From IMG/VR virus record IMGVR_UViG_3300045988_131209: 49,086 nucleotides of DNA, one strand, 5' to 3'. The translations under genes were made by a program, and so were the position numbers. This stretch comes from a virus. How positions within the stretch are numbered: the first letter of the stretch is position 1; every line of letters begins with the position of its first letter. Below are positions 8,342-42,564 of this stretch, in pieces. The notes beneath the pieces were generated by a model. That model did not search any database, was not told where the DNA came from, and worked only from the letters and a program-made list of their open reading frames with translations.

Positions 8342-8945
8342 CTTTGTTGCTGTCTTCTTTTGGGGCCACTACCGTGTCCTTTCCTGTTTTGTCCACTATA
8401 AATGTATTTCCATCTATCGTTATTTCTGTTTTTTGCCCTTCCGGTAAGGACTGAAAAAATCTTTTAAACCCCGAATCTTCCACGGTGGGACTTTCTGTAT
8501 CTTTATCGTCCTCTCCGGCTTCGTAGGGAAAAACATCCATTAACTGTGTTTCCGTGACGGATGCAATCTCATAGTCGGCAAGCGTACCCCTCATACCTTC
8601 TTCCAGTACGGCGACGGCTTCTTTCAGGTTCGACGCTTGTGCCAGCATCTGTGCTGCGGTTTTCTTTTCGGCTCCGCTCTTTTCGTCGAGGGTGATGAAG
8701 TAAACTTTGACCTTATAGAAACGGTCACCGTTTTCGTTGAAAAACAACTCTGATATCTTTGCCCTTTTGATATCTTTTACGGTAAATTCACCGCTGATAA
8801 ACGGTGCGACCTCTTCAATAATGCGGGCTTCCGCCTCTGAGAACGAAAGCGCATCTACTAAATAGGCTTCCGTCACCGTTTTTTGTTTCCCGTCTTCCAT
8901 GATTTTCTCGAAGGAAACTTTACATTCGAAATATGTACTTGCCAT
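8316..8945 (-). CDS. DUF4494-like protein
   Basis: N-terminus YFECKVSFEKIMEDGKQKTVTEAYLVDALSFSEAEARI resembles the Bacteroidetes DUF4494 family. Confidence 0.5.
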   Translation of the reverse strand: MASTYFECKVSFEKIMEDGKQKTVTEAYLVDALSFSEAEARIIEEVAPFISGEFTVKDIKRAKISELFFNENGDRFYKVKVYFITLDEKSGAEKKTAAQMLAQASNLKEAVAVLEEGMRGTLADYEIASVTETQLMDVFPYEAGEDDKDTESPTVEDSGFKRFFQSLPEGQKTEITIDGNTFIVDKTGKDTVVAPKEDSNKDDIRGTES

Positions 8946-8971
8946 AATTATTTATTTGTTAAACACTATTG

Positions 8972-9053
8972 TGGACGGCGCCGGAATCGAACCGGCCTCT
9001 TTGCAAAAGGTGCGCACTTTGCAATGTTTCATTCCTTTGATCACTTACCGCCC
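8972..9053 (-). tRNA. tRNA-like RNA #1 (82 nt, non-canonical; anticodon not assignable by eye)
   Basis: 7-bp acceptor GGGCGGT/GCCGTCC with G3:U70, A73; T arm GCCGG-TTCGATT-CCGGC; the 50-nt interior does not give a standard D/anticodon arm. Confidence 0.55.
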
Positions 9054-9122
9054 CAAATCTCCGTATATCCTCACGGACGACGGGGAAATACTAATCTATA
9101 ATACCATGAAAAACAAAAAAAG

Positions 9123-9269
9123 TTATCCACGTTTTCTTAATTTGCCTACCATTTGCCTGCATCGCCTGGCAAGGTCAAGGTCGCGTGGCATTGAGCAGTT
9201 GGCCTCTATTACCTGTTGCGACTTGTCCAGTAATGCGATGATCGTTTTCAGGTCTGTCTTTCCTAACAT
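9123..9269 (-). CDS. Small hypothetical protein (48 aa, below track cutoff)
   Basis: ATG-initiated ORF MLGKTDLKTIIALLDKSQQVIEANCSMPRDLDLARRCRQMVGKLRKRG fills the gap between the DUF1351 gene and tRNA-like #1. Confidence 0.35.
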   Translation of the reverse strand: MLGKTDLKTIIALLDKSQQVIEANCSMPRDLDLARRCRQMVGKLRKRG

Positions 9270-9281
9270 ATCACCCTTAAT

Positions 9282-10229
9282 TCATGGGACTTCAATTTTG
9301 TCAAAGTCAATGCCCCTGTCATTCATAAAATTGCCAAGTGCAATGATGTTTTCCCGCGTTGTCGTGACCTTAAAGGCCCGTGTCAGTAGTTCGGGTTGTG
9401 CCGGTTGTGGATCCGGCTGTGGTTCGGCCGGGATAAAGGGAATGTTTCCTTGTGCTTGCATCTCCTGCCGTTTGGGCTGCTCTACCGTCTTTTGCCGTTC
9501 TTCTTCAATCCGTCTGCGCTCTTCCTCTGCCTTTATCCGTGCCTCTTCGGCTATCCGTGCCCGTTCGCGCTGCTCTTTGAGGCGGTTCGCGTACAGGATG
9601 GTCGCGGAGATGTTGAGCGTGTCCATGTAATAGGTTCGGAGCACATCGAAGTCCTCGCCGAACCCTTTGAGGGCTTCCATGTCGCTGTCGACCTTGGCAA
9701 AGATTTTCTCAATCTCCGCCTGTATGTATTTCATGCTCGCTGACTTGTTGAGCCATTCCGATTTGAAAACCTTACCAAAATCAATAAGGTTGGCATTGCC
9801 ATCGTCAAAATACGAGCGGATAACGGCTAACTTCCTATCCTTGTATTGCTGCTCGTTTTGCTTCACGACTGCATCGATTTTAGCGGAACAGTCACCGATC
9901 AACTTTACGGTTTCGGTGACAATATCCTTAAACTCGCCGAAGGGCTTCATAAACTCCTTCTCGATTTCGAGCCTTTTTTGATTCAGGGCTTTGGCCGCCT
10001 TATTAAGGGCGGCCTTGTCTTTCTTCGCCTGGTCAATGTTTTCGTCGTTATAGTTGGCGATATCGTACATTGGCAAAGCTGCTTTGACCATATCCCTAAT
10101 CTGGATAGCGTTTGTCGTAAGGCTACCCAATGTCTTTTCACTTACGATCAATTCAAGGTCGCTTTCTTTGATTGCTATAAGTTGTTGTGTTTCCATAATT
10201 TCAATTGATGATTTTGTTAATGAGTTCAT
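9282..10229 (-). CDS. DUF1351-like recombination-module protein
   Basis: 315 aa, coiled-coil, E/R-rich linker, C-terminal small domain; position next to exonuclease/annealase as in other phages. Confidence 0.5.
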   Translation of the reverse strand: MNSLTKSSIEIMETQQLIAIKESDLELIVSEKTLGSLTTNAIQIRDMVKAALPMYDIANYNDENIDQAKKDKAALNKAAKALNQKRLEIEKEFMKPFGEFKDIVTETVKLIGDCSAKIDAVVKQNEQQYKDRKLAVIRSYFDDGNANLIDFGKVFKSEWLNKSASMKYIQAEIEKIFAKVDSDMEALKGFGEDFDVLRTYYMDTLNISATILYANRLKEQRERARIAEEARIKAEEERRRIEEERQKTVEQPKRQEMQAQGNIPFIPAEPQPDPQPAQPELLTRAFKVTTTRENIIALGNFMNDRGIDFDKIEVP

Positions 10230-10866
10230 TCGCTAAACATACCCGCTTTTCCATTTCCGCAAAGACTCTTTCATCTGGGACTATGCGTACAATGTGGATC
10301 GGATCGGCCTGAAAAGGATTGTAGGCGATAAAAAATGTTTCTCTCGCCTCGGTACACATCATGTGTGCCATGCACTGATAGTAGTACTCGTACTTTACGC
10401 GTAGCAGAGATTCGTTGTCGTAAATCTCGTTTCGGTAGCGCATAAAGGTCGCCTGATTGGGACATTTTATCTCCAAGCACGACTTTATTCCGCTGCTTTC
10501 GTCGTAGCAAAACCCGTCCGGGCTGCTTGCAAAGTACGGGATGGTAGGATGCTTGCACGATCCGACCTCTACAATGTGCCGTCCGGTTATCTTTGCGAAA
10601 AGGTCACGGGCTTCTGCTTCTTGTTCGTTGCCCCATCTTATAGCCTTGCTGGTTACTTCGGTTTGCCTAATGTATTCGGCAAACAGTTCGTCGTCGGCGA
10701 TGATCACCGGATTCATTGCCCTTTCCGCTGCTACCTGATACAAGTAGCTTTTACCGGTTTCGGAAAAGGTCTCTGTGCGGCCGCTCTTCATCAGCAGTCC
10801 GACGTTACTGCCCGTTATGTGGCCACAACGGGCGCGGAACCAACCTAATGTATGTTGTGCATCCAT
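10201..10866 (-). CDS. YqaJ-like viral recombinase exonuclease (lambda Exo-type PD-(D/E)xK)
   Basis: N-terminus WFRARCGHITGSNVGLLM (YqaJ signature), 221 aa. Confidence 0.75.
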   Translation of the reverse strand: MDAQHTLGWFRARCGHITGSNVGLLMKSGRTETFSETGKSYLYQVAAERAMNPVIIADDELFAEYIRQTEVTSKAIRWGNEQEAEARDLFAKITGRHIVEVGSCKHPTIPYFASSPDGFCYDESSGIKSCLEIKCPNQATFMRYRNEIYDNESLLRVKYEYYYQCMAHMMCTEARETFFIAYNPFQADPIHIVRIVPDERVFAEMEKRVCLANELINKIIN

Positions 10867-11717
10867 TACAAAAGGGTTTTAGGTTGGGTTGGCTTCTTTT
10901 CTTTAATGGCACTCTCTTTTGCAATGTCGGCGATTTTGGTTTTTGACACTTCGCCACCCCGGAAAGGTTTCATCAAATCTTCCACGGTTGTATCGCCATC
11001 TTTTAAAGATTGTGCCATACCAAGCAACAAGGCAATCTCATTAGCCCTGATTTGATTAACAGTCTGCTTTCCACATAAGCGGATAACCTCTGCTTCCGTA
11101 ATGCCCCATTCTTCATTAAAATGGTTGATTGCGTCGATTCTCCGTTTAATCAGCTTTTCTTCGTCCGAAAGGTCTCCTGTAATAAATCTTTGTGCTGCCT
11201 TATAAACTTTGTCAACTACAGCCTTCGGAACCACCGAAAAAACAGCGTTACGGTAAGCGATTGAGTTTGCCGCATTCCCCGTAACAGTAATCATGTCGTC
11301 GGAATAACGTTTCCCTTTGCTATCCACGATGCTTCTGCGTACCTCAAATGCAGATGCCACATTTGCCTCTAAATCCCAACATGTACCACGGCTGATTATC
11401 TGCTTATCTGTGATTTGTACAACTTTCGCCTCGGTTCTCATGTTCCCCCAATTAGAGACTACTATTTTTGCCAAATGGACGGAAGGCCCTGTGATCGGTT
11501 TCCCTCCGCGGGGTAACGCATATCCGCAACTTTGTGCGGTTTCAGAGTCCATCGTAGCCATGACAATCGAATTGTCTATGCTGCGCTTTATGTTCCGGGG
11601 GTAACGCTTTGCCGTTGCCACCTGAGAGTCGACGTTTGCCCTCTCTACTGCATCAACCTGTACGACTTGTACCTCTTGTGCTTCTACAGGAAGCACTTCG
11701 TAATTTTCTAAATTCAT
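10866..11717 (-). CDS. Putative single-strand annealing protein (RecT/Redbeta-class partner of the exonuclease)
   Basis: 283 aa, start overlaps the exonuclease gene (ATGA); assignment is by synteny, no motif firmly recognised. Confidence 0.45.
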   Translation of the reverse strand: MNLENYEVLPVEAQEVQVVQVDAVERANVDSQVATAKRYPRNIKRSIDNSIVMATMDSETAQSCGYALPRGGKPITGPSVHLAKIVVSNWGNMRTEAKVVQITDKQIISRGTCWDLEANVASAFEVRRSIVDSKGKRYSDDMITVTGNAANSIAYRNAVFSVVPKAVVDKVYKAAQRFITGDLSDEEKLIKRRIDAINHFNEEWGITEAEVIRLCGKQTVNQIRANEIALLLGMAQSLKDGDTTVEDLMKPFRGGEVSKTKIADIAKESAIKEKKPTQPKTLL

Positions 11718-11741
11718 GGATAATTGATTTTAATATGTTTG

Positions 11742-11809
11742 TGGACGCCGGGGAATCGAACCCCGCCCTTTCCCTTTTGAAGAATGCTCTACCGTTGAGC
11801 TATGCGCCC
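11742..11809 (-). tRNA. tRNA-like RNA #2 (68 nt; canonical D and T arms, truncated anticodon loop)
   Basis: GGGCGC-A-TA-GCTC-AACGGTA-GAGC-A-TTCTT-CAAAA-GGGAA-AGGG-CGGGG-TTCGATT-CCCCG-GCGTCC-A; G3:U70, A73. Confidence 0.55.
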
Positions 11810-12073
11810 GTGCCGGTCTTCCCCGGCTGCCAGTATCAAAAACAAATAATAGCCTGCCTGCCTCCCGGCGGTAATATTTTAAATCTCATCCTACCGTGCT
11901 CCTGCCTACCGGACCATTGCAAACGTCAAGGTCTACCACTTTCAAGGGTTTGCGGTTGCCGGTCTGAGGCGCGGGTTACACCTTGGATGATATCTTTATC
12001 TATCGACCAAATACCTCTTTAAATTTTTTATCCAAGGCATTAAGTATTCTAATTCTTGTTGCCGGATCACAAC

Positions 12074-12439
12074 TTATATTATCAATCGAATAGATTCTAA
12101 CGAGAAGTTGTTCTCTTGAACCGCAGAAACATCCACAAGTATAAAAAGGGGCGATTTGGGGGGGTAATTGTGTTTATACCACATATGATTAGTTCCTTTT
12201 ATCGCCACATAGTTTTTAGTGACTACGAAATCGTAGGTTGTTTCTTTATAACCCGGTGTGTTAGGGTTCCCGGCTGCGCTACGGCGGACATCATAGTCGC
12301 TGTTTAAAATTTCATTCTTAGTCATCTCTATATATAATTTAGATTGAATATTAATCTTACCAATACATAGTTGTATTTTCCCATTCCCTCTGATATACAT
12401 CTTCGGGATCTTCCGTATCTTCGCATCCGTCAAAGTCAA
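12074..12439 (-). CDS. Hypothetical protein (start uncertain; ATG at 12325 gives 83 aa)
   Basis: ORF-track ORF. An alternative 39-aa acidic ORF (12357-12476) in another frame covers the 5' part. Confidence 0.4.
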   Translation of the reverse strand: MTLTDAKIRKIPKMYIRGNGKIQLCIGKINIQSKLYIEMTKNEILNSDYDVRRSAAGNPNTPGYKETTYDFVVTKNYVAIKGTNHMWYKHNYPPKSPLFILVDVSAVQENNFSLESIRLII

Positions 12440-12472
12440 TGTCGCCGTCGGGGGTGGTTATGTAGATATCTT

Positions 12473-12613
12473 TCATGCCTCAAATAATTTGAGTTTGCTC
12501 ACAGACAACCAGCATAGGCACAAGCCTATAACATTGGGTAAAAACGACTCGCTTTCCGACACTGTCAGAATAAATCCCGTGATTAGCAGGATTGCAAAAA
12601 ATACCTTTTTCAT
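12473..12613 (-). CDS. Small membrane protein (46 aa)
   Basis: MKKVFFAILLITGFILTV... hydrophobic N-terminus; its stop overlaps the next ATG (ATGA at 12473-12476). Confidence 0.35.
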   Translation of the reverse strand: MKKVFFAILLITGFILTVSESESFLPNVIGLCLCWLSVSKLKLFEA

Positions 12614-12922
12614 ATATAATGTTGATTTTAAAATTTCAAGATAAAGCCGGAGCGATCTTCACAGAGGGCTTCGGCTAACAAGTAAATGAATTGTTGTACC
12701 ATGTAATGTGGAGTGGCCATCCGGGCATTGAACCCGGTAATGCAAGCCTGTAGGGAACGTAATAAATAGAAACAACTAAATCCGGTCTCTCACCGGACGC
12801 CGTCCTTTACGGCGGAATTGGTTAATTAATAAATCATTTTTAATTGTCCCTACCTTCTTAGTTGGCCTTGCACCCTCCGGCTGATTCGATCAGCAGCATC
12901 GCGCCTTTTCAGAGGGTTTTCT

Positions 12923-12930
12923 TAACTTTG
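12923..12930 (+). promoter_or_regulatory. -7 box TAACTTTG for the lone rightward gene 12957..13160
   Basis: Exact TAnnTTTG 26 nt upstream of the ATG; the 12-mer TAACTTTGTGTC is shared with the late promoter at 20333. Confidence 0.45.
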
Positions 12931-12956
12931 TGTCGCCAAACATAAAAATTAAGAAA

Positions 12957-13160
12957 ATGAGTAATTTTATTGAAGTAATCAATTGTGGAGATGAAGAGAA
13001 AATATTAATCAATGTAGATTACATTGTTAAGATTGTACCTTATGAGGGACAATCAAGCACTATCTATTTGAACGTTAAAAGCATTAATAACTATTCTCTT
13101 CAAACAATAACAGTCAAACACTCTTATTCCGAAATTAAGAAGATGCTTGCTATTGAGTAA
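12957..13160 (+). CDS. Hypothetical small protein (67 aa), opposite strand to the surrounding operon
   Basis: ATG at 12957 within track ORF 12930..13160; own promoter box. Confidence 0.5.
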   Translation: MSNFIEVINCGDEEKILINVDYIVKIVPYEGQSSTIYLNVKSINNYSLQTITVKHSYSEIKKMLAIE

Positions 13161-13389
13161 CCCAATTGTAAAGCTGTTTGTATTTTTCAGCATTTTTGAT
13201 GCACCATATCCTGATTAGTAAATCTTCGTGGCATGGTGCATCACTCAGCCACTGAAATATCTTATTAAGACTGCTTTGAGGCAGCGTGTAACCAACAGCC
13301 TCAACAATTACCATTTTTAATTCCATGTCACTCATGTTTATTAGTATTTGATGGTTTGTGTACCCGGCAGCCGATCCGATCGACAGCAT
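13150..13389 (-). CDS. Hypothetical small protein (probable start at 13335, 61 aa)
   Basis: Track ORF; 3' end overlaps the convergent 12957..13160 gene by 11 nt. Confidence 0.45.
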   Translation of the reverse strand: MLSIGSAAGYTNHQILINMSDMELKMVIVEAVGYTLPQSSLNKIFQWLSDAPCHEDLLIRIWCIKNAEKYKQLYNWVTQ

Positions 13390-13660
13390 CGCGCCTTCGA
13401 AGCCGGGCTATATCTTGTAGCTGGATAGGTTAACCAATGTCCGAATCATAACACCTAAAGGATAGTCCAGCTTTTTTGTTATACAATGTATGTCACACAA
13501 GACTCCACGAAAAGAACGATTAAACAACATCGCGAGCGGGGAATATCTTCCCTCTTTTCATTTCACCTTGTACCGCCTTGTGATATCCCGATACCTCTTA
13601 CGTGTAACTTATGATATCGTTCAAGGACTTATATAAACCATGTCAAAGAACGCTTTTTTG

Positions 13661-13730
13661 TGGGCATCCGGGATTCGAACCCGGTCAGGAACGCTTCCCC
13701 TCACCAGCCGAACGCTTTCGGCTTATACCC
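13661..13730 (-). tRNA. tRNA-like RNA #3 (70 nt; acceptor + T arm only, body is two short hairpins)
   Basis: GGGTAT/ATGCCC acceptor (6 bp), A73; T arm CCGGG-TTCGAAT-CCCGG; interior AGCCGAA-AGCG-TTCGGCT and GGGAA-GCG-TTCCT hairpins. Confidence 0.45.
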
Positions 13731-14032
13731 TATAGATTGTTTACAGAATCAAAAGATTTGTATGCAGCTAAAGCCGCCTCGATTTCAAGCCTGGAATACA
13801 TCATGGGGGAATTTCTTCCCGTTCCATTTCTTTCCCCTTTTACATTGTGCTCCCTTTTCAACTCCTGGAGTAGCGAAGGTTTATGCCCCAGGGATTTCAG
13901 CCACCTGCAAACTTCCCGTTGGCTGATCCTATCGGAAGCCGGCGCCCGCCTCTTTTCCGCTGCTTCTGCTCCAAGCGTTGCCGCTTCGATGAGCAGGTTC
14001 TTTAGTTCAAAAAGCTCTATTTTTATCTTCAT
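13730..14032 (-). CDS. Putative excisionase-like / HTH DNA-binding protein
   Basis: 100 aa from the ATG at 14032; ISQREVCRWLKSLG...MMYSRLEIEAALA resembles HTH_17/Xis-type proteins; located in the switch-proximal early operon. Confidence 0.35.
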   Translation of the reverse strand: MKIKIELFELKNLLIEAATLGAEAAEKRRAPASDRISQREVCRWLKSLGHKPSLLQELKREHNVKGERNGTGRNSPMMYSRLEIEAALAAYKSFDSVNNL

Positions 14033-14034
14033 GG

Positions 14035-14223
14035 CTACATTGTTTTTCTCTGTATCACACATCCGTAATCTTTCAAGGCAATCTCCCGGATTAAATCGGG
14101 CTGTTCCCCTTCCGTCGCAAACCGAAGAGCGTTCCTTACGGTCTGCTCCGTTACGCCAAGTCTGGAGGCTAACTTTGTCACCATCCCTCTTTCGTACAGG
14201 ATTTTATACTTTACTATCTTCAT
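14035..14223 (-). CDS. Small HTH protein (Cro-like candidate)
   Basis: 62 aa, KLASRLGVTEQTVRNAL helix-turn-helix; second gene of the leftward operon. Confidence 0.5.
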   Translation of the reverse strand: MKIVKYKILYERGMVTKLASRLGVTEQTVRNALRFATEGEQPDLIREIALKDYGCVIQRKTM

Positions 14224-14244
14224 GTCTTTGTTTTTATATGGTTA

Positions 14245-14538
14245 TCAATCACCGTTATATCTGTTGTTTGCATAATAGTTTGTCAGCGTGTTTGCCATGA
14301 AAGCCATTGAACAAGTGCTGATGTTGCGTTTTGCATCCCGGTTTTCGCACTGCTTTTTGTTCATGTTGAAAAGCTGGTACATGCTCATTGCCTTGTTATA
14401 AGAAGTACGTTCCTCTTTCCATGCTTCTTTCATGCACTCCGCAAATGTCAACACGTGATTGCGGTACTTCTTGCCAGCTTTGAACATGTTCCAAGCTGTT
14501 TTCATGATTCTGCTTTTGTTGTACTTCGGTGCTTTCAT
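14245..14538 (-). CDS. Hypothetical protein, first gene of the leftward early operon
   Basis: 97-aa ORF divergent from the repressor gene. Confidence 0.5.
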   Translation of the reverse strand: MKAPKYNKSRIMKTAWNMFKAGKKYRNHVLTFAECMKEAWKEERTSYNKAMSMYQLFNMNKKQCENRDAKRNISTCSMAFMANTLTNYYANNRYNGD

Positions 14539-14708
14539 TTCTGTTTTTATTTTTTATATTTGCAAATCGCCGTTTTCTTTTTCGTTTGCAAAACGGATTT
14601 GCTTTTGATTACAGTGCAAATATAATATCCATATTTGGATATTTGCTATTTTTAATTGTTAAAAATAGCAATATATGGCTATTTAGAATCAGTCTAAATA
14701 ATATCAAC
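14539..14708. promoter_or_regulatory. Lysis-lysogeny switch region with palindromic operators and two TATATTTG -7 boxes
   Basis: -7 boxes at 14555-14562 (+) and 14617-14624 (-). Palindromes ATTTGCAAAT 14558-14567, TTTGCAAA 14585-14592, ATATCCA-N4-TGGATAT 14625-14642, and a 13-bp perfect IR TTGCTATTTTTAA-TTG-TTAAAAATAGCAA 14643-14671. Confidence 0.6.
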
Positions 14709-15164
14709 ATGGAAAATATTGTAAAACAGAGAATTAAAGAAGCAATTGAATTTAGAAAAACCAGTATTAACGCTATAAGTAAGGTGATAGGGGTGAAGCA
14801 AAATACCCTGTCAAGGCAAATTAATACAGATAATCCAATGCCGCTTAGCAATGTATTGCTATTGATTGATGCGTTAGAAATTGATCCGTCGTGGCTTCTT
14901 ACCGGCAAAGGCGAAATGACCAAGCAGCCCACGGACCAAGAGACACCAGTCAGTACCAATAACTCGGACATGAAATCTGCTTTTTTGAAAAAGGAAGCCT
15001 TTTATTTAAGGCAGATGAACGAACGGTTGGACGACCTCATTAAGGCTAACGAAACAATCGAAAATTTAAAGGAAGAGGTAGAATCTCTCAAAAAACAGCT
15101 GGAGTTGGCAGAACAAGATTCAAATAAAATGGCTGTAAATGTCGTAAAACATAAGTTCGCTTGA
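14709..15164 (+). CDS. cI-like repressor (XRE-family HTH + C-terminal coiled coil)
   Basis: ATG at 14709; IKEAIEFRKTSINAISKVIGVKQNTLSRQ HTH; divergent from the early operon. Confidence 0.75.
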   Translation: MENIVKQRIKEAIEFRKTSINAISKVIGVKQNTLSRQINTDNPMPLSNVLLLIDALEIDPSWLLTGKGEMTKQPTDQETPVSTNNSDMKSAFLKKEAFYLRQMNERLDDLIKANETIENLKEEVESLKKQLELAEQDSNKMAVNVVKHKFA

Positions 15165-15216
15165 AACGTTTTCCTCCCGGCCATTGTTTTATACAAACAA
15201 TGTAAACTTTATCACG

Positions 15217-15489
15217 ATGGAAGAAGAAGATAGTGAATTATTGGAAAGGCTCGTCGTAATCGAGCTTAAAATAGACGCAATCCTTAGAGAGTTAGCCTTG
15301 TCTATAAGTAAAGAAAAGAACTTGATGTCTGGGATGAATACCCTTTTGGAAGAAGCAAGGGCACGCAAAAACACGGATAATGCCGAAGGAAAGATGCTGC
15401 AAATGGAATGTAGGGTTGTTGATATGTTAAGTAAAGTTAATGGGGGGGGGGTAAACAGGCTCTTCTATAGGAGAAGCCACTATCTTTAA
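15217..15489 (+). CDS. Hypothetical coiled-coil protein containing a G10 homopolymer
   Basis: ATG at 15217; G10 run 15442-15451 encodes GGG. Confidence 0.45.
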   Translation: MEEEDSELLERLVVIELKIDAILRELALSISKEKNLMSGMNTLLEEARARKNTDNAEGKMLQMECRVVDMLSKVNGGGVNRLFYRRSHYL

Positions 15490-15726
15490 TAATGTATAAG
15501 GAGATTAAAGAAGGAAGCAAATTCAGGATACAAAATATTAAAATAATAATGATGGATGCTTTAGGATTTATATTCACGGTCGGAATAGTTGTAGTGGGTG
15601 GCATATTGATATGGACCAACACTAAGTCAGGTAAAAAATGGCTGGAGGGCCTATAGTGTTTTGCTTCGGTAAATGCAATTAGCAATTGCCAATAAAAGCC
15701 ACGAAATATGGCAAGATGGAGCAGAA

Positions 15727-15748
15727 GTTTCGCAATTGTTTCGCAAAT
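15727..15748 (+). repeat. 2 x 11-bp tandem GTTTCGCAA(T/A)T, arm-type site candidates (P arm)
   Basis: Read directly; same unit as 15950-15993. Confidence 0.6.
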
Positions 15749-15804
15749 AGGTTTTATACTGATTTGTAACATACAATATCATAGCCGATTAGGATGTTTT
15801 GGAA

Positions 15805-15852
15805 ATTAGATTCCGGTTCTGAAGGTCGTGGGTTTGAATCCCACCCTGGTCA
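15805..15852 (+). other. attP core: 3' part (anticodon arm to discriminator) of a tRNA-Arg(CCG)
   Basis: TTAGA-TTCCGGT-TCTGA anticodon arm (anticodon CCG), AGGTC variable loop, GTGGG-TTTGAAT-CCCAC T arm, CCTGGTC-A acceptor; no matching 5' acceptor strand upstream. Confidence 0.7.
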
Positions 15853-15882
15853 CAGGTTTAAAAATCAATGTTTTAGACATTT

Positions 15883-15920
15883 AAGCCGTATTTCTTTTAT
15901 AGATTTACGGCTTTTATTTT
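15883..15920 (+). terminator. Rho-independent terminator after the tRNA fragment
   Basis: AAGCCGTA-N15-TACGGCTT followed by TTATTTT. Confidence 0.55.
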
Positions 15921-15949
15921 GTTCACTTTTGCTCAAAATCGCTACATTT

Positions 15950-15993
15950 GTTTCGCAATTGTTTCGCAATTGTTTCGCAATTGTTTCGCAAAA
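15950..15993 (+). repeat. 4 x 11-bp tandem GTTTCGCAATT, arm-type sites (P' arm) / int leader operator
   Basis: Read directly; begins at the last base of a TACATTTG -7 box (15943-15950) and ends 13 nt before the int ATG. Confidence 0.65.
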
Positions 15994-16006
15994 AAAGAAT
16001 AAGGAT

Positions 16007-17233
16007 ATGGCAACATTTAAAGCAGAAGTGCAGAAGCAACGGAAAGATGGGACTTTTAATATAAAGATACTTGTCACTCATAACAGGCAGCTAAAGAGAT
16101 TGCCGACCGGCATTTACATAACCAAGGATGATATGACACGATCCGGCAAAATCAAAAACCAAAAAATACTGGATCAGATAGATGATTTAATAATGCGTTA
16201 CAGGAAGAAGACTAATGAGCTATCTGTTGCAATAAACAACATGTCTATCGATAAGCTGGCAAGATATCTATGCGAACCGGAGGTTGTCTCTATTGACTTC
16301 TTGGAAGTGTTCCGGGATTACATAGACGAAAATCCGGATAAGAAAGGGGTGAGGAATTACAAATCAGCTCTAAATTCCCTCGTCAAATTCCTTGGAAGAA
16401 ACAGTCTGGATATTTCAGAGATAACAGTTCCTTTCTTGGAAAAATATGCTGCTTCTCTTGGAAAAGGTCGTGCGGTGTCCTTGTATCTTGGCAGCATGAG
16501 GCATGTTTATTCTTATGCGAAGCAAAAATACAATGACGAAGACGCAAAAAGAATATTGATCCCTTATTCGCCATTTTCACGGTATAAAGTACCCCGTCAG
16601 AATGTAGCGGAAAAGAAGGCTATAAGTGCGGAGCTTATCCGAAAGATAATAGAACTTCCGTACGATGCCACTTCGCGCGGGAAAGATAAAGAGAATCGTT
16701 ATAATTTGGCAAAGGATTGCTTTATCCTGTCATTTAGCCTTATAGGCACTAACTCTGTTGATTTATATAATGCGGAGATTTACGAGAACGACGAAATTGT
16801 ATATTGCCGGACTAAAACGAAGGATCGCCGAAGCGATAAGGCAAGAATCCAAATAAAGGTGCACCCCCATATATTACCTATATTTAAAAAATACATGGAT
16901 AAAACAGGGAAAAGGGTTTTTCGCTTTTATCAGATGTATGCAGATCAATCGACATTTAATGCAGCTTTGAACAAAGGGTTGAAGGCTGTAGGGAAAAAGG
17001 TTGGCATTCCCGGCCTTAAATTTTATGCAGCCCGGCATTCCTGGGCCACAATAGCCAGGAACGACTTAAAGACGGACAAATCAACCATAGATGAGGCCCT
17101 GAATCATATAGATAAAAGATTGTCTGTTACAGACTTGTATATAAAAAAGGATTTTTCGATTATCAACGAGGTTAATAAATCGGTCTTGGACTATGTATTC
17201 AAATCCCGTAAACCTCGTAAATCCAAACAGTAA
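16007..17233 (+). CDS. int: Tyrosine integrase with N-terminal arm-DNA-binding domain
   Basis: ATG at 16007 (the track ORF's 5' extension covers the tRNA fragment); AARHSWAT, LNH and LYIKK catalytic-region motifs; N-terminus MATFKAEVQKQRKDGTFNIKILV arm-binding type. Confidence 0.85.
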   Translation: MATFKAEVQKQRKDGTFNIKILVTHNRQLKRLPTGIYITKDDMTRSGKIKNQKILDQIDDLIMRYRKKTNELSVAINNMSIDKLARYLCEPEVVSIDFLEVFRDYIDENPDKKGVRNYKSALNSLVKFLGRNSLDISEITVPFLEKYAASLGKGRAVSLYLGSMRHVYSYAKQKYNDEDAKRILIPYSPFSRYKVPRQNVAEKKAISAELIRKIIELPYDATSRGKDKENRYNLAKDCFILSFSLIGTNSVDLYNAEIYENDEIVYCRTKTKDRRSDKARIQIKVHPHILPIFKKYMDKTGKRVFRFYQMYADQSTFNAALNKGLKAVGKKVGIPGLKFYAARHSWATIARNDLKTDKSTIDEALNHIDKRLSVTDLYIKKDFSIINEVNKSVLDYVFKSRKPRKSKQ

Positions 17234-42498: not shown

Positions 42499-42564
42499 TA
42501 TGCGTGTTGCCTACGTATAAAAGGCAAAGAGTTCTTTGACATGGTGGGATAGTTGCTATATTGG

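What the first reader, a model, noticed from the sequence alone, without database searches (positions are those of the whole stretch)
11742..13735. ORF-poor, structure-rich RNA island with tRNA-like modules punctuating the polycistronic early operon
Within 2 kb there are three long gaps without credible ORFs: 11810-12073, 12614-12922 and 13390-13660. All three are GC-richer than their surroundings and full of stem-loops. Examples are GCCGG-TCTTCC-CCGGC at 11822-11837, CGCCGT-N5-ACGGCG and TCCGG-N7-CCGGA at about 12780-12820, and AGCCG...CGGCT at about 12645-12678. Gap 2 holds a fourth, degenerate copy of the T-arm/3'-acceptor module at 12713-12737 (gtggccatccgggcattgaacccgg, versus gtgggcatccgggattcgaacccgg in element #3). 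All tRNA-like modules are on the same strand as the genes and lie between cistrons. My hypothesis is that they act as RNase P/Z 'punctuation' sites that cut the long early transcript, and/or yield stable tRNA-mimic RNAs such as decoys for tRNA-targeting host defences. Element #1 (8972-9053) would belong to the same family.
Basis: inference. Interest (0 to 1): 0.68.

Follow-up and report, generated by a model that had tools for sequence, protein, structure and literature searches.

The report
tRNA-like punctuation in phage operon
A gut Bacteroidales phage carries anticodon-less tRNA look-alikes and two conserved folded RNAs between its early genes, placed so that the host's tRNA-trimming enzymes would probably cut the long early message into ready-to-translate pieces, much as in mitochondria, though no cutting has been observed.

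Summary
Three stretches (11810-12073, 12614-12922, 13390-13660) lack credible ORFs under any stop-codon model.

The tRNA-like modules lie on the gene (minus) strand:
- Three are full cloverleaf-like elements without a usable anticodon loop: 8972-9053, 11742-11809 and 13661-13730.
- One is only a T-arm/3'-acceptor remnant (12714-12748).

Related IMG/VR phages carry dozens of such elements with one architecture: stable hairpin, 4-9 nt, intact acceptor/T-arm, about 25 nt, then ATG. ARAGORN does not of 51 as tRNAs. Element #3 sits where 35 of 59 relatives have a real tRNA-Arg(CCU).

Gap 1 and gap 3 each hold a conserved structured RNA absent from Rfam. One is a 107-nt rod and the other contains a three-way junction. 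Both show compensatory changes, and together they bracket a variable small-ORF region in 32 of 32 loci. Gap 2 is a mosaic junction.

Best explanation: tRNA-derived RNase P/Z processing signals, like plant mitochondrial t-elements. This is inferred from anatomy, not from transcript ends. The anticodon-nuclease decoy idea is not supported. Enrichment of G3·U70 with A73 leaves open a charged tRNA-mimic role.

The parts
8972..9053 (-). tRNA-like element #1 (82 nt). Acceptor GGGCGGU/GCCGUCC with G3·U70 and A73. T-arm GCCGG-UUCGAUU-CCGGC. The 'anticodon' arm is an 8-bp stem with loop UGCGCACC. The next ATG (8945) is 26 nt downstream.
   Evidence: ARAGORN does not call this element in the window; relatives with UGCG-containing loops are called 'tRNA-??? 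(tgcg)'
9058..9086 (-). Stable hairpin with GUGA (GNRA) loop ending 4 nt upstream of element #1
   Evidence: -10.4 kcal/mol; same module class in 82% of elements
11742..11809 (-). tRNA-like element #2 (68 nt). It has a canonical D-arm and T-arm, G3·U70 and A73. The anticodon arm is a 5-bp stem with a 3-5-nt loop. The RecT-like gene starts at 11717.
   Evidence: Rfam tRNA 42.7 bits; ARAGORN 'Phe-aaa'; fold; family variants with D-stem covariation and different short loops
11812..11827 (-). Hairpin GCCGG-GGAAGA-CCGGC, 2 nt upstream of element #2
   Evidence: conserved in L003-L005 and L358
11885..11991 (-). Gap-1 'rod' RNA: a 107-nt irregular long hairpin with apex AAGUGGUAG. It is conserved in Bacteroides phage BF1-TP2 and in 73 fetched sequences (72 loci plus the window).
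   Evidence: 8 of 27 pairs compensatory; nhmmer E 1.5e-32
12645..12676 (-). Hairpin with CUGUGAAGAU apex (GUGA loop), followed by an AU-rich spacer and the ATG at 12613. It is the same hairpin class that precedes tRNA-like elements elsewhere.
12714..12748 (-). Element #4: a T-arm plus 3' acceptor remnant, or minihelix. It is 77% identical to the 3' half of #3 and has no cloverleaf.
   Evidence: (D3, D7)
12781..12815 (-). Double-hairpin module followed by a U-rich tail. It is the only terminator-like site on the gene strand in the island, and it is a mobile module.
12873..12916 (.). Copy A of the 'GAAGGCG' stem-loop motif (part of the 39-nt direct repeat). It adjoins the plus-strand -7 box TAACTTTG (12923-12930) of the moron ORF 12957-13160.
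   Evidence: (D4)
13363..13407 (-). Copy B of the 'GAAGGCG' stem-loop motif, at the 3' edge of the conserved gap-3 block. About 24 nt upstream of ATG 13338. Downstream sequence differs between relatives.
13489..13658 (-). Gap-3 conserved RNA. It contains the invariant GUUCUUUGAC (13642-13651), the CCUUG...CAAGG domain (13576-13626) and a three-way junction (13505-13562).
   Evidence: 13 of 27 pairs compensatory; nhmmer E 2.3e-40; 91 hits, 90 loci plus the window; T-arm just upstream in 88 of 91
13661..13730 (-). tRNA-like element #3 (70 nt). Acceptor GGGUAU/AUGCCC and T-arm CCGGG-UUCGAAU-CCCGG. The D and anticodon arms are replaced by hairpins with AGCG tetraloops. It occupies the slot of tRNA-Arg(CCU) in relatives.
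   Evidence: (35 of 59 relatives have tRNA-Arg CCU)

Best explanation
The tRNA-like modules are tRNA-derived processing signals built into the minus-strand early transcript of a temperate Bacteroidales phage.

Each keeps the half of a tRNA that host RNase P and RNase Z recognise: the acceptor stem stacked on the T-arm, and often the D-loop elbow. Each has lost the anticodon loop.

Proposed mechanism:
- RNase P cuts at the 5' end of the element. This leaves the upstream RNA ending in a stable hairpin that protects it from 3' exonucleases.
- tRNA genes here do not encode CCA, so RNase Z would cut after the discriminator. This frees a downstream mRNA, or the gap-3 RNA, whose leader is about 25 nt long, the preferred 5' UTR length in Bacteroides.

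The gaps are not empty spacers. Gap 1 and gap 3 each hold a conserved structured RNA attached to a tRNA-like element. Gap 2 is a junction between swapped cassettes.

Shown: the elements, their conservation, their architecture, and the covariation in the two gap RNAs.
Inferred: transcription as one unit, cleavage by RNase P and RNase Z, and the benefit to the phage.
For: - All four modules in the window are on the gene strand. In the window plus 80 related loci there are 54 unique elements on the gene strand against 11 on the other strand.
- ARAGORN does not of 51 unique elements as tRNAs. The T-loop is nonetheless UUCGAnU in 46 of 51, GG is present in the D-loop region in 44 of 51, and U8 in 34 of 51.
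- The anticodon arms are short-looped struts that differ between close relatives, while the D-stem covaries: GCUC/GAGC, GAUC/GAUC and GCUU/AAGC.
- Some relatives reduce the element to a bare acceptor/T-arm minihelix (BF1-TP2 type).
- 82% of elements have a hairpin of -10 kcal/mol or stronger in the 40 nt upstream, against 6.7% of random windows (Mann-Whitney p 8e-24). The hairpin ends 4-9 nt before position +1.
- The next ATG lies a median 26 nt after the discriminator, with a mode of 23-28 nt. The modal 5' UTR in B. thetaiotaomicron is 23 nt and the median is 32 nt (PMC7366714).
- Element #3 occupies the slot of a genuine tRNA-Arg(CCU) in 35 of 59 homologous loci, all followed by the same conserved RNA.
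- Phages with 98-100% identical RecT carry three different tRNA-like elements at the same spot. Shape matters, not sequence.
- Neither the phage tRNAs nor the att tRNA encode CCA. From established knowledge of B. subtilis RNase Z, that implies endonucleolytic 3' processing.
Against: - No transcript 5' or 3' ends were available, so cleavage is not shown.
- A terminator-like double hairpin on the gene strand (12798-12780) may split the 'polycistronic' transcript inside the island.
- Any co-transcribed tRNA-like RNA would be cut by RNase P by default, so processing could be incidental rather than selected.
- G·U is specifically enriched at acceptor pair 3:70: 24 of 51 elements, against 14% or less at every other acceptor position. 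A pure processing role does not explain this.
- The elements do not precede a fixed gene. Only 3 of 25 DUF4494 homologues have one upstream.
- The functions of the rod RNA and the three-way-junction RNA remain unexplained.
Confidence: 0.45

Rival explanations
1. The released elements act in trans as stable, aminoacylatable tRNA mimics. About a third of the families carry the alanine identity set (G3·U70, A73, G1-C72, G2-C71). Others carry a tRNA-Leu-type D-arm. AlaRS and LeuRS both ignore the anticodon. After CCA addition the RNAs could therefore be charged. They could then titrate or redirect AlaRS, EF-Tu, SmpB or aminoacyl-tRNA transferases, or enter stalled ribosomes as the tmRNA tRNA-like domain does.
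For: - G·U occurs at pair 3:70 in 24 of 51 unique elements (8 of 26 distinct acceptor stems, against 3 with G-C). Every other acceptor position has 14% or less.
- A73 is present in 18 of 26 distinct stems.
- Several long elements have tRNA-Leu-like D-arms, GUGGCGGAAUUGGUAGACGC.
- An IMG/VR scan found more than 120 GGGC...GUCCACA elements. ARAGORN does not of 118 as tRNAs.
- Some of these are tmRNA tRNA-like-domain-only 'mini-tmRNAs' that pass the Rfam tmRNA threshold.
- That AlaRS charges G3·U70 minihelices is established knowledge (Hou and Schimmel; Francklyn and Schimmel).
Against: - Within the element #2 family U70 is not fixed: GUCC in three variants, GCCC in two and AUCC in one.
- Element #3 has G3-C70.
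- The G3·U70 families may simply descend from phage tRNA-Ala genes, which are present in the same scan.
- Free swapping of unrelated elements at one site argues against a sequence-specific trans target.
- The window elements do not match the tmRNA model.
Confidence: 0.15
2. They are decaying phage tRNA genes and integration scars with no present function. Phage tRNA genes such as tRNA-Arg(CCU) or tRNA-Ala lost their anticodon arms by drift. Element #4 would be the displaced 3' half left when a cassette inserted into a tRNA(-like) gene.
For: - Genuine tRNA-Arg(CCU) sits at the orthologous site of element #3.
- Element #4 is a 3'-half copy lying 947 nt downstream of #3 on the transcript, 77% identical to it.
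- The DNA between them includes a cassette that is swapped in L001.
- Partial tRNA copies are typical att scars (PMC9897764).
Against: - Drift should destroy acceptor and T-arm pairing as readily as the anticodon arm. Instead the top half and the elbow are kept in dozens of divergent families, with compensatory changes.
- The strand bias, upstream hairpin and fixed spacing to the ATG are not expected of junk.
- No integrase lies between #3 and #4.
Confidence: 0.12
3. The structured modules act in cis on transcription or mRNA fate, rather than as RNase P/Z sites. This would cover the GNRA hairpins, rod, three-way junction, GAAGGCG stem-loop and tRNA-likes. Possible roles are put/nut-like processive antitermination signals that read through the gap-2 terminator, RNase III sites as in T7 early mRNA, or 5' stabilisers and ribosome-loading platforms for the downstream ORF.
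For: - The rod and the three-way-junction RNAs are conserved with covariation.
- They keep a fixed order on the gene strand in 32 of 32 loci that have both.
- The rod precedes the first gene of non-homologous recombination modules: RecT-like, Erf or ATPases.
- A terminator-like site lies between the two RNAs.
- Hairpin loops of GNRA type (GUGA, GCGA), plus a GGAAGA loop, recall lambda boxB (from memory, not tested).
Against: - No antiterminator protein or boxA-like element was identified.
- This reading does not explain why the tRNA top half specifically is retained, or why a real tRNA can substitute.
- It is compatible with the main explanation rather than exclusive of it.
Confidence: 0.15
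4. The modules act at the DNA level as module-boundary sequences. Conserved non-coding blocks would serve as homologous-recombination joints or landing pads that shuffle small-ORF cassettes between phages, like the T4 promoter-early stem-loop (PeSL) cassettes.
For: - Mosaic breakpoints coincide with the edges of the modules. Sequence downstream of the GAAGGCG motif diverges into at least five different genes.
- Downstream of the BF1-type minihelix there are four different genes.
- The tRNA-like element itself is swapped between phages with identical RecT.
- Cassette 12957-13361 is swapped in L001.
- The double hairpin is found at different sites in different phages.
Against: Recombination joints need sequence identity, not strand-specific RNA folds. 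Compensatory base changes and the strong gene-strand bias point to selection at the RNA level. Mosaicism is more likely a consequence than the function.
Confidence: 0.1

Closest known systems
Plant mitochondrial t-elements and the mitochondrial tRNA-punctuation model
   Same: These are tRNA-like structures without decoding function, embedded in longer transcripts. Cleavage by RNase P and RNase Z defines the mRNA 5' and 3' ends (PMC1920247). Orientation and placement between cistrons match.
   Different: Here the setting is a bacterial virus using host enzymes. Each element has a dedicated upstream hairpin and a fixed spacer of about 25 nt to the start codon. Cleavage has not been shown.
MALAT1/MEN-beta mascRNA and murine gammaherpesvirus 68 tRNA-miRNA-encoded RNAs (TMERs)
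   Same: A tRNA-like module is attached to another non-coding RNA, and RNase P or RNase Z cleavage separates the two. The pairing of element #3 (or tRNA-Arg) with the gap-3 RNA looks like this.
   Different: There is no sequence relationship: the Rfam mascRNA model scores 18.7 bits against a threshold of 42.5. The hosts are eukaryotic. The downstream RNA here is a junction-containing motif of about 170 nt with unknown role.
Ordinary phage-encoded tRNA genes (for example tRNA-Arg CCU or tRNA-Ala UGC)
   Same: These are the likely ancestors. They share the genomic slot, the acceptor/T-arm, the absence of encoded CCA and the ACA/ACU trailer.
   Different: Elements #1 to #3 have no 7-nt anticodon loop with U33. 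Only #2 passes the Rfam tRNA threshold.
T7 early-mRNA RNase III processing hairpins
   Same: These are host-nuclease sites between the cistrons of a phage early polycistronic RNA, and they leave protective 3' hairpins. The 107-nt rod is an irregular long duplex of that general shape.
   Different: A different nuclease is proposed for the tRNA-like parts. RNase III cleavage of the rod is pure conjecture.
tmRNA tRNA-like domain, including reduced tmRNAs
   Same: It has G3·U70 with A73, an acceptor plus T-arm, and no anticodon. Mini-tmRNA genes exist in other IMG/VR phages.
   Different: The window elements lack the tmRNA D-loop signature GGnUUCGAC and do not hit the tmRNA model.
T4-type PeSL mobile regulatory cassettes
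   Same: Short conserved regulatory or structural modules flank small ORFs in a hyperplastic early region and coincide with the joints where genes are shuffled.
   Different: PeSLs are a promoter plus a stem-loop. Here the modules are tRNA-like elements and larger folded RNAs, with no promoter consensus.

Membership tests
Canonical tRNA (Rfam RF00005) | Score at or above the Rfam gathering threshold (29 bits) | tested here: inconclusive
   Element #2 scores 42.7 bits. Elements #1, #3 and #4 give no tRNA hit even at E up to 10.
Canonical tRNA (Rfam RF00005) | 5-bp anticodon stem with a 7-nt loop, U33 and a 3-nt anticodon | tested here: not met
   Element #2 has a 3-5-nt loop, which ARAGORN forces to 'aaa'. 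Element #1 has an 8-nt loop on an 8-bp stem. Element #3 has an AGCG tetraloop. ARAGORN does not of 51 related elements as tRNAs.
Canonical tRNA (Rfam RF00005) | 7-bp acceptor stem plus 5-bp T-stem with a UUCRANY T-loop | tested here: met
   Present in elements #1 to #3. Element #2 has an A7·G66 mismatch. The T-loop is UUCGAnU in 46 of 51 relatives.
tRNA-like processing elements (t-elements, mascRNA type) | Non-decoding tRNA-like fold inside a longer transcript, in sense orientation, next to mRNA or ncRNA boundaries | tested here: met
   Gene-strand, intergenic, with 54 elements on the gene strand against 11 on the other. The spacer to the next ATG is 23-28 nt. Co-transcription is inferred from the lack of promoters and the operon layout.
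tRNA-like processing elements (t-elements, mascRNA type) | Cleavage by RNase P at the 5' end and RNase Z at the 3' end | not testable with these tools
   This needs transcript-end mapping or in-vitro cleavage.
tmRNA (Rfam RF00023) | Match to the tmRNA covariance model, with the tRNA-like domain carrying the GGnUUCGAC D-loop analogue and G3·U70 | tested here: not met
   There is no tmRNA hit in 8500-16500. Only a 12.4-bit fragment matches beta_tmRNA. As a positive control, mini-tmRNA L100 scores 62.8 bits.
AlaRS substrates (alanine identity) | G3·U70 wobble pair with A73 in an acceptor helix | tested here: inconclusive
   Elements #1 and #2 have it; element #3 does not. It is enriched in relatives, 24 of 51, but is not fixed within the element #2 family. 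Charging itself is not testable here.
att-site tRNA fragment (integration scar) | Partial 3' copy of a tRNA gene that matches a full copy across an inserted element carrying or served by an integrase | tested here: inconclusive
   Element #4 is a 3'-half copy, 77% identical to #3 and 947 nt away. The DNA between them is partly a swapped cassette. There is no integrase there and the identity is low.
Known Rfam families for the gap RNAs | Any covariance-model match to the rod (11885-11991) or the gap-3 RNA (13489-13658) | tested here: not met
   cmscan of 8500-16500 at E up to 10 gave no match to the rod. The only match touching the gap-3 RNA is mitochondrion-like noise far below threshold: SNORA2 does not reach it, and the listed weak hits (SNORA2, snoRNAs) lie elsewhere in the island.

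The most novel reading that the evidence does not exclude
The phage releases anticodon-less tRNA mimics that are still chargeable. The families are biased towards identity sets read by synthetases that ignore the anticodon: G3·U70 with A73 for AlaRS, and Leu-type D-arms for LeuRS. This would make them a new class of viral aminoacyl-RNA effectors. They could be tmRNA-domain-like ribosome-rescue modulators, or sinks and donors for aminoacyl-tRNA-dependent enzymes. The TLD-only mini-tmRNAs seen in other phages would be relatives.
Probability: 0.12. Interest if true: 0.88.

Novelty: new variant of a known kind. Interest (0 to 1): 0.66.

Why it matters
If the elements are cut as proposed, this would be a bacterial-virus counterpart of mitochondrial tRNA punctuation. 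Host RNase P and RNase Z would be used to carve an early operon into mRNAs with the leader length that SD-less Bacteroidetes ribosomes prefer.

That would explain how gut Bacteroidales phages express mosaic early regions. It would also give annotators a rule for dozens of 'tRNA-???' calls.

The work also defines two conserved phage RNA motifs that are absent from Rfam 15: the rod and the three-way-junction RNA. Both are abundant in human-gut viromes.

Finally, the G3·U70 bias and the mini-tmRNAs point to a testable possibility that phages deploy charged, non-decoding tRNA mimics.

Tried and rejected
- Rfam at gathering threshold and at E up to 10 gave nothing for the gaps or for elements #1, #3 and #4.
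- Coding readings of the gaps were rejected. There are no Pfam or PHROG hits, no open frame under single stop reassignment, and ATG is followed directly by TAG in homologues.
- A GTDB genome scan for the gap-3 core pattern returned 73 hits across unrelated phyla. That is about the number I estimate by chance for 17 fixed bases in 596 Gb. It therefore gave no host or chromosomal context.
- One IMG/VR scan was mis-specified, with too long a gap, and found only unrelated tRNA-Gln genes.
- The idea that the elements mark a specific gene was rejected. Only 3 of 25 unique DUF4494 upstream regions have a T-arm.
- GTTCTTTGAC as a standard Bacteroides promoter (TTTG, 17-23 nt, TAnnTTTG) did not fit at gap 3. 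A sigma-70 reading also lacks a -10 box.
- A hammerhead or other ribozyme reading of the three-way junction was rejected by eye, because the junction strands are 0, 5 and 0 nt.
- Palindromic apices of some 'anticodon' hairpins (GUGCGCAC, GGUGCACC) were considered as kissing-loop dimer sites. I left this as unproven, since short hairpin apices are often palindromic.
- No phage-encoded RNA-processing enzyme was found among the 20 early-region proteins scanned against Pfam, 10 of them downstream of the island.
- Literature searches found no description of these elements. A virome-wide catalogue mentions tRNA-like candidates only generically (PMC10690425).


Full report
**Context.** The window is a temperate Bacteroidales phage.
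- A tyrosine integrase (15794-17233, +) sits next to an attP-like tRNA-Arg(CCG) (15787-15852). A cI-like HTH gene lies at 14529-15164 (+).
- A long minus-strand early operon starts near the -7 box at 14617-14624. It runs leftwards through HTH genes, a RecT-like gene (10866-11717), YqaJ, DUF1351, DUF4494, VRR-NUC, an antirepressor, a replication-like gene and a methylase.
- The nearest cultured relatives are Parabacteroides phages PF672P1 and PF672P2 and Bacteroides phage BF1-TP2.
The elements are therefore on the minus strand, the strand of the genes.

**The observation.**
- The three gaps contain only short ORFs with no family match. No gene-strand frame opens if TGA or TAG alone is reassigned.
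- Homologous sequences differ by 1-2-nt indels and by paired substitutions. The gaps are non-coding.
- The quoted stem-loops are present. One coordinate is off by 10 nt: the hairpin is at 11812-11827.
- GC content is 0.466, 0.437 and 0.413 for the gaps, against 0.425 for the window. The gaps are richer only than the AT-rich small-ORF segments between them.
- By single-sequence folding only gap 2 is unusually stable: z is -3.7, against -0.9 and -1.4 for gaps 1 and 3.

**The tRNA-like elements.**
- Element #2 (11742-11809) passes the Rfam tRNA threshold at 42.7 bits, and ARAGORN calls it tRNA-Phe(aaa). Its anticodon arm, however, is a 5-bp stem closed by a loop of only 3-5 nt.
- Element #1 (8972-9053) and element #3 (13661-13730) fold as cloverleaf-like RNAs with a proper acceptor stem and T-arm. 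They have odd inner arms: an 8-bp stem with an 8-nt loop in #1, and two hairpins with AGCG tetraloops in #3.
- Element #4 (12714-12748) is only a T-arm plus 3' acceptor strand. At best it forms a bulged minihelix.

**Relatives.** I fetched 80 IMG/VR loci through the RecT-like protein.
- They carry many similar elements, almost all on the gene strand. There are 54 unique elements of 125 nt or less, against 11 on the other strand and 6-15 in shuffles.
- ARAGORN fails to of 51 as tRNAs. Several are reported as 'tRNA-???' with 2- or 4-base anticodons.
- The T-loop is UUCGAnU in 46 of 51. GG is present in the D-loop region in 44 of 51.
- Within the element #2 family the D-stem covaries (GCUC/GAGC, GAUC/GAUC, GCUU/AAGC). 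The 'anticodon' strut is UUCUU-CAAAA-GGGAA, UUCUU-UGG-AAGAG or UCCCC-UACC-GGGGA.
- Phages whose RecT is 98-100% identical carry three unrelated tRNA-like elements at the same site. The fold is what is kept, not the sequence.

**A fixed architecture.**
- 82% of elements have a hairpin of -10 kcal/mol or stronger in the 40 nt upstream, against 6.7% of random windows (p 8e-24). The hairpin often has a GNRA loop (apex CUGUGAAGAU) and ends 4-9 nt before position +1.
- The next ATG-started ORF begins a median 26 nt after the discriminator, with a mode of 23-28 nt.
- In B. thetaiotaomicron most mRNAs have a 23-nt 5' UTR, with a median of 32 nt, and there is no Shine-Dalgarno sequence (PMC7366714).
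- Neither the phage tRNAs nor the att tRNA encode CCA. In bacteria such as B. subtilis that implies endonucleolytic 3' cleavage by RNase Z (established knowledge).
- A cut there would give the downstream cistron a leader of the host-typical length. An RNase P cut at +1 would leave the upstream RNA ending in a protective hairpin.

**Gap 3.**
- Directly after element #3 lies a conserved RNA (13489-13658). It is found in 89 IMG/VR stretches, almost all from human gut. nhmmer finds one copy per locus.
- It begins with an invariant GUUCUUUGAC. It contains a CCUUG...CAAGG domain and a three-way junction at 13505-13562.
- In three subfamilies 13 of 27 predicted pairs show compensatory changes, for example an outer stem of GAAAAGA/UCUUUUC against ACCGGAA/UUCCGGU.
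- A T-arm lies just upstream in 88 of 91 hits.
- In 35 of 59 unique loci that upstream element is a genuine tRNA-Arg(CCU). In 23, including the window, it is an anticodon-less element of the #3 type. Element #3 is therefore a functional stand-in for, and probably a descendant of, a phage tRNA.
- The conserved block ends in a 'GAAGGCG' stem-loop (13363-13407). Beyond it the sequence diverges into at least five different genes, each 20-35 nt downstream.

**Gap 1.**
- Positions 11885-11991 form a 107-nt irregular hairpin. It is conserved in BF1-TP2, where it lies upstream of an Erf gene, and it is found in 73 fetched sequences (72 loci plus the window).
- Eight of 27 pairs are compensatory, for example GCAAAC/GUUUGC against GAUAUC/GAUAUC. 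These changes lie mostly between two clades, so independent events are few.
- In BF1-type phages the rod is followed by a bare acceptor/T-arm minihelix, about 22 nt of spacer, and the ATG of different first genes of the recombination module.
- In all 32 loci that have both RNAs, the gap-3 RNA lies upstream of the rod on the same strand, 1.2-5.1 kb away.

**Gap 2.** This is a junction.
- It holds a second copy of the GAAGGCG stem-loop (12873-12916).
- It holds a Bacteroides -7 box (12923-12930) for the AT-rich plus-strand ORF 12957-13160.
- It holds a mobile double hairpin with a U-rich tail (12781-12815). This is the only terminator-like site on the gene strand.
- It also holds element #4 and a CUGUGAAGAU hairpin (12645-12676).
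- Segment 12957-13361 is replaced in the otherwise near-identical L001. The double hairpin sits elsewhere in other phages.

**Interpretation.**
- The evidence best fits tRNA-derived processing signals. Only the parts recognised by RNase P, RNase Z and the CCA-adding enzyme are conserved, and the placement is what a punctuation system needs.
- This is inference. No transcript ends were available, and the gap-2 terminator may divide the transcript.
- The decoy idea fails for anticodon nucleases.
- One feature is not explained by processing alone. G·U is found at acceptor pair 3:70 in 24 of 51 elements, against 14% or less at other acceptor positions, usually together with A73. Other families have tRNA-Leu-type D-arms. 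AlaRS and LeuRS do not read the anticodon.
- An IMG/VR scan for GGGC...GUCCACA returned more than 120 elements. ARAGORN does not of 118 as tRNAs. The set includes 81-nt tmRNA-domain-only genes that pass the Rfam tmRNA threshold.
- U70 is not fixed within the element #2 family, and descent from phage tRNA-Ala could explain the bias. I therefore rate a charged-mimic role as possible but unproven.

**Comparison with known systems.**
- The closest analogues are plant mitochondrial t-elements and mitochondrial tRNA punctuation, mascRNA and MHV68 TMERs, and T7 RNase III sites.
- The elements are not members of the tRNA family in the functional sense, because they lack an anticodon loop. They are not members of the tmRNA family either.
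- The rod and the three-way-junction RNAs match nothing in Rfam 15.
- I found no paper describing them. A virome-wide catalogue mentions tRNA-like candidates only in general terms.

**Verdict.** This is a real, conserved and only partly understood non-coding system. It is a new variant of a known kind, of moderately high interest.

Noticed in passing
L100 7262-7342 (-); L127 2612-2692 (-): Environmental IMG/VR phage contigs encode 'mini-tmRNA' genes of about 81 nt. They consist of the tmRNA tRNA-like domain only. In L100 the 304 internal model positions are replaced by 12 nt, and the Rfam tmRNA score is 62.8 bits (threshold 47). L127 scores 37.7 bits.
   Followed up: partly
window 13636-13655 (-) and 42528-42547 (+): The 20-nt motif AAAGnGTTCTTTGACATGGT occurs in two intergenic places. 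The second lies 18 nt upstream of a near-consensus Bacteroides -7 box (TATATTGG, 42557-42564). It may be a protein-binding or promoter element. GTTCTTTGAC is invariant in all gap-3 RNA homologues.
   Followed up: partly
window 15727-15992: An attP-like tRNA-Arg(CCG) (15787-15852, 29.1 bits) abuts the integrase ORF. It is flanked by 11-bp repeats GTTTCGCAATT at 15727-15747 and 15950-15992, which are probably integrase arm-type or regulator sites.
   Followed up: no
window 12957-13361: This is a cassette with a plus-strand 67-aa ORF (GC about 0.30, with its own TAACTTTG -7 box) and the minus-strand ORF 13150-13338. It is replaced by unrelated DNA in L001, which is otherwise 99.5% and 91% identical on the two sides. 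It is a moron-type swap bounded by the two GAAGGCG stem-loop copies.
   Followed up: partly
window 12781-12815; L221, L225, L293, L300: The double-hairpin module (CCGCCGU-AAAGG-ACGGCG, then UCCGGU-GAGAG-ACCGGA, then a U-rich tail) is mobile. In other phages it sits inside the loop of a hairpin of the gap-1-type RNA.
   Followed up: partly
L015-L079, several (e.g. L062 3757, L049 4435, L079 4495): These are long (104-167 nt) tRNA-like elements with a tRNA-Leu-type D-arm (GUGGCGGAAUUGGUAGACGC). Inserts of 30-100 nt replace the anticodon and variable region. They are too short to be group I introns.
   Followed up: no
window 9013-9020 (apex of the element #1 hairpin) and relatives (C4, C7, C11 families): Several 'anticodon' hairpins have fully palindromic 8-nt apices: GUGCGCAC, GGUGCACC, UUGCGCAA and UGAGCUCA. 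They may be kissing-loop dimerisation sites, or simply hairpin apices.
   Followed up: no
window 12930-12775 (-): A minus-strand -7 box (TATGTTTG, 12944-12937) plus the double-hairpin terminator could define a separate small RNA of about 150 nt across gap 2. The -33 element is weak.
   Followed up: no
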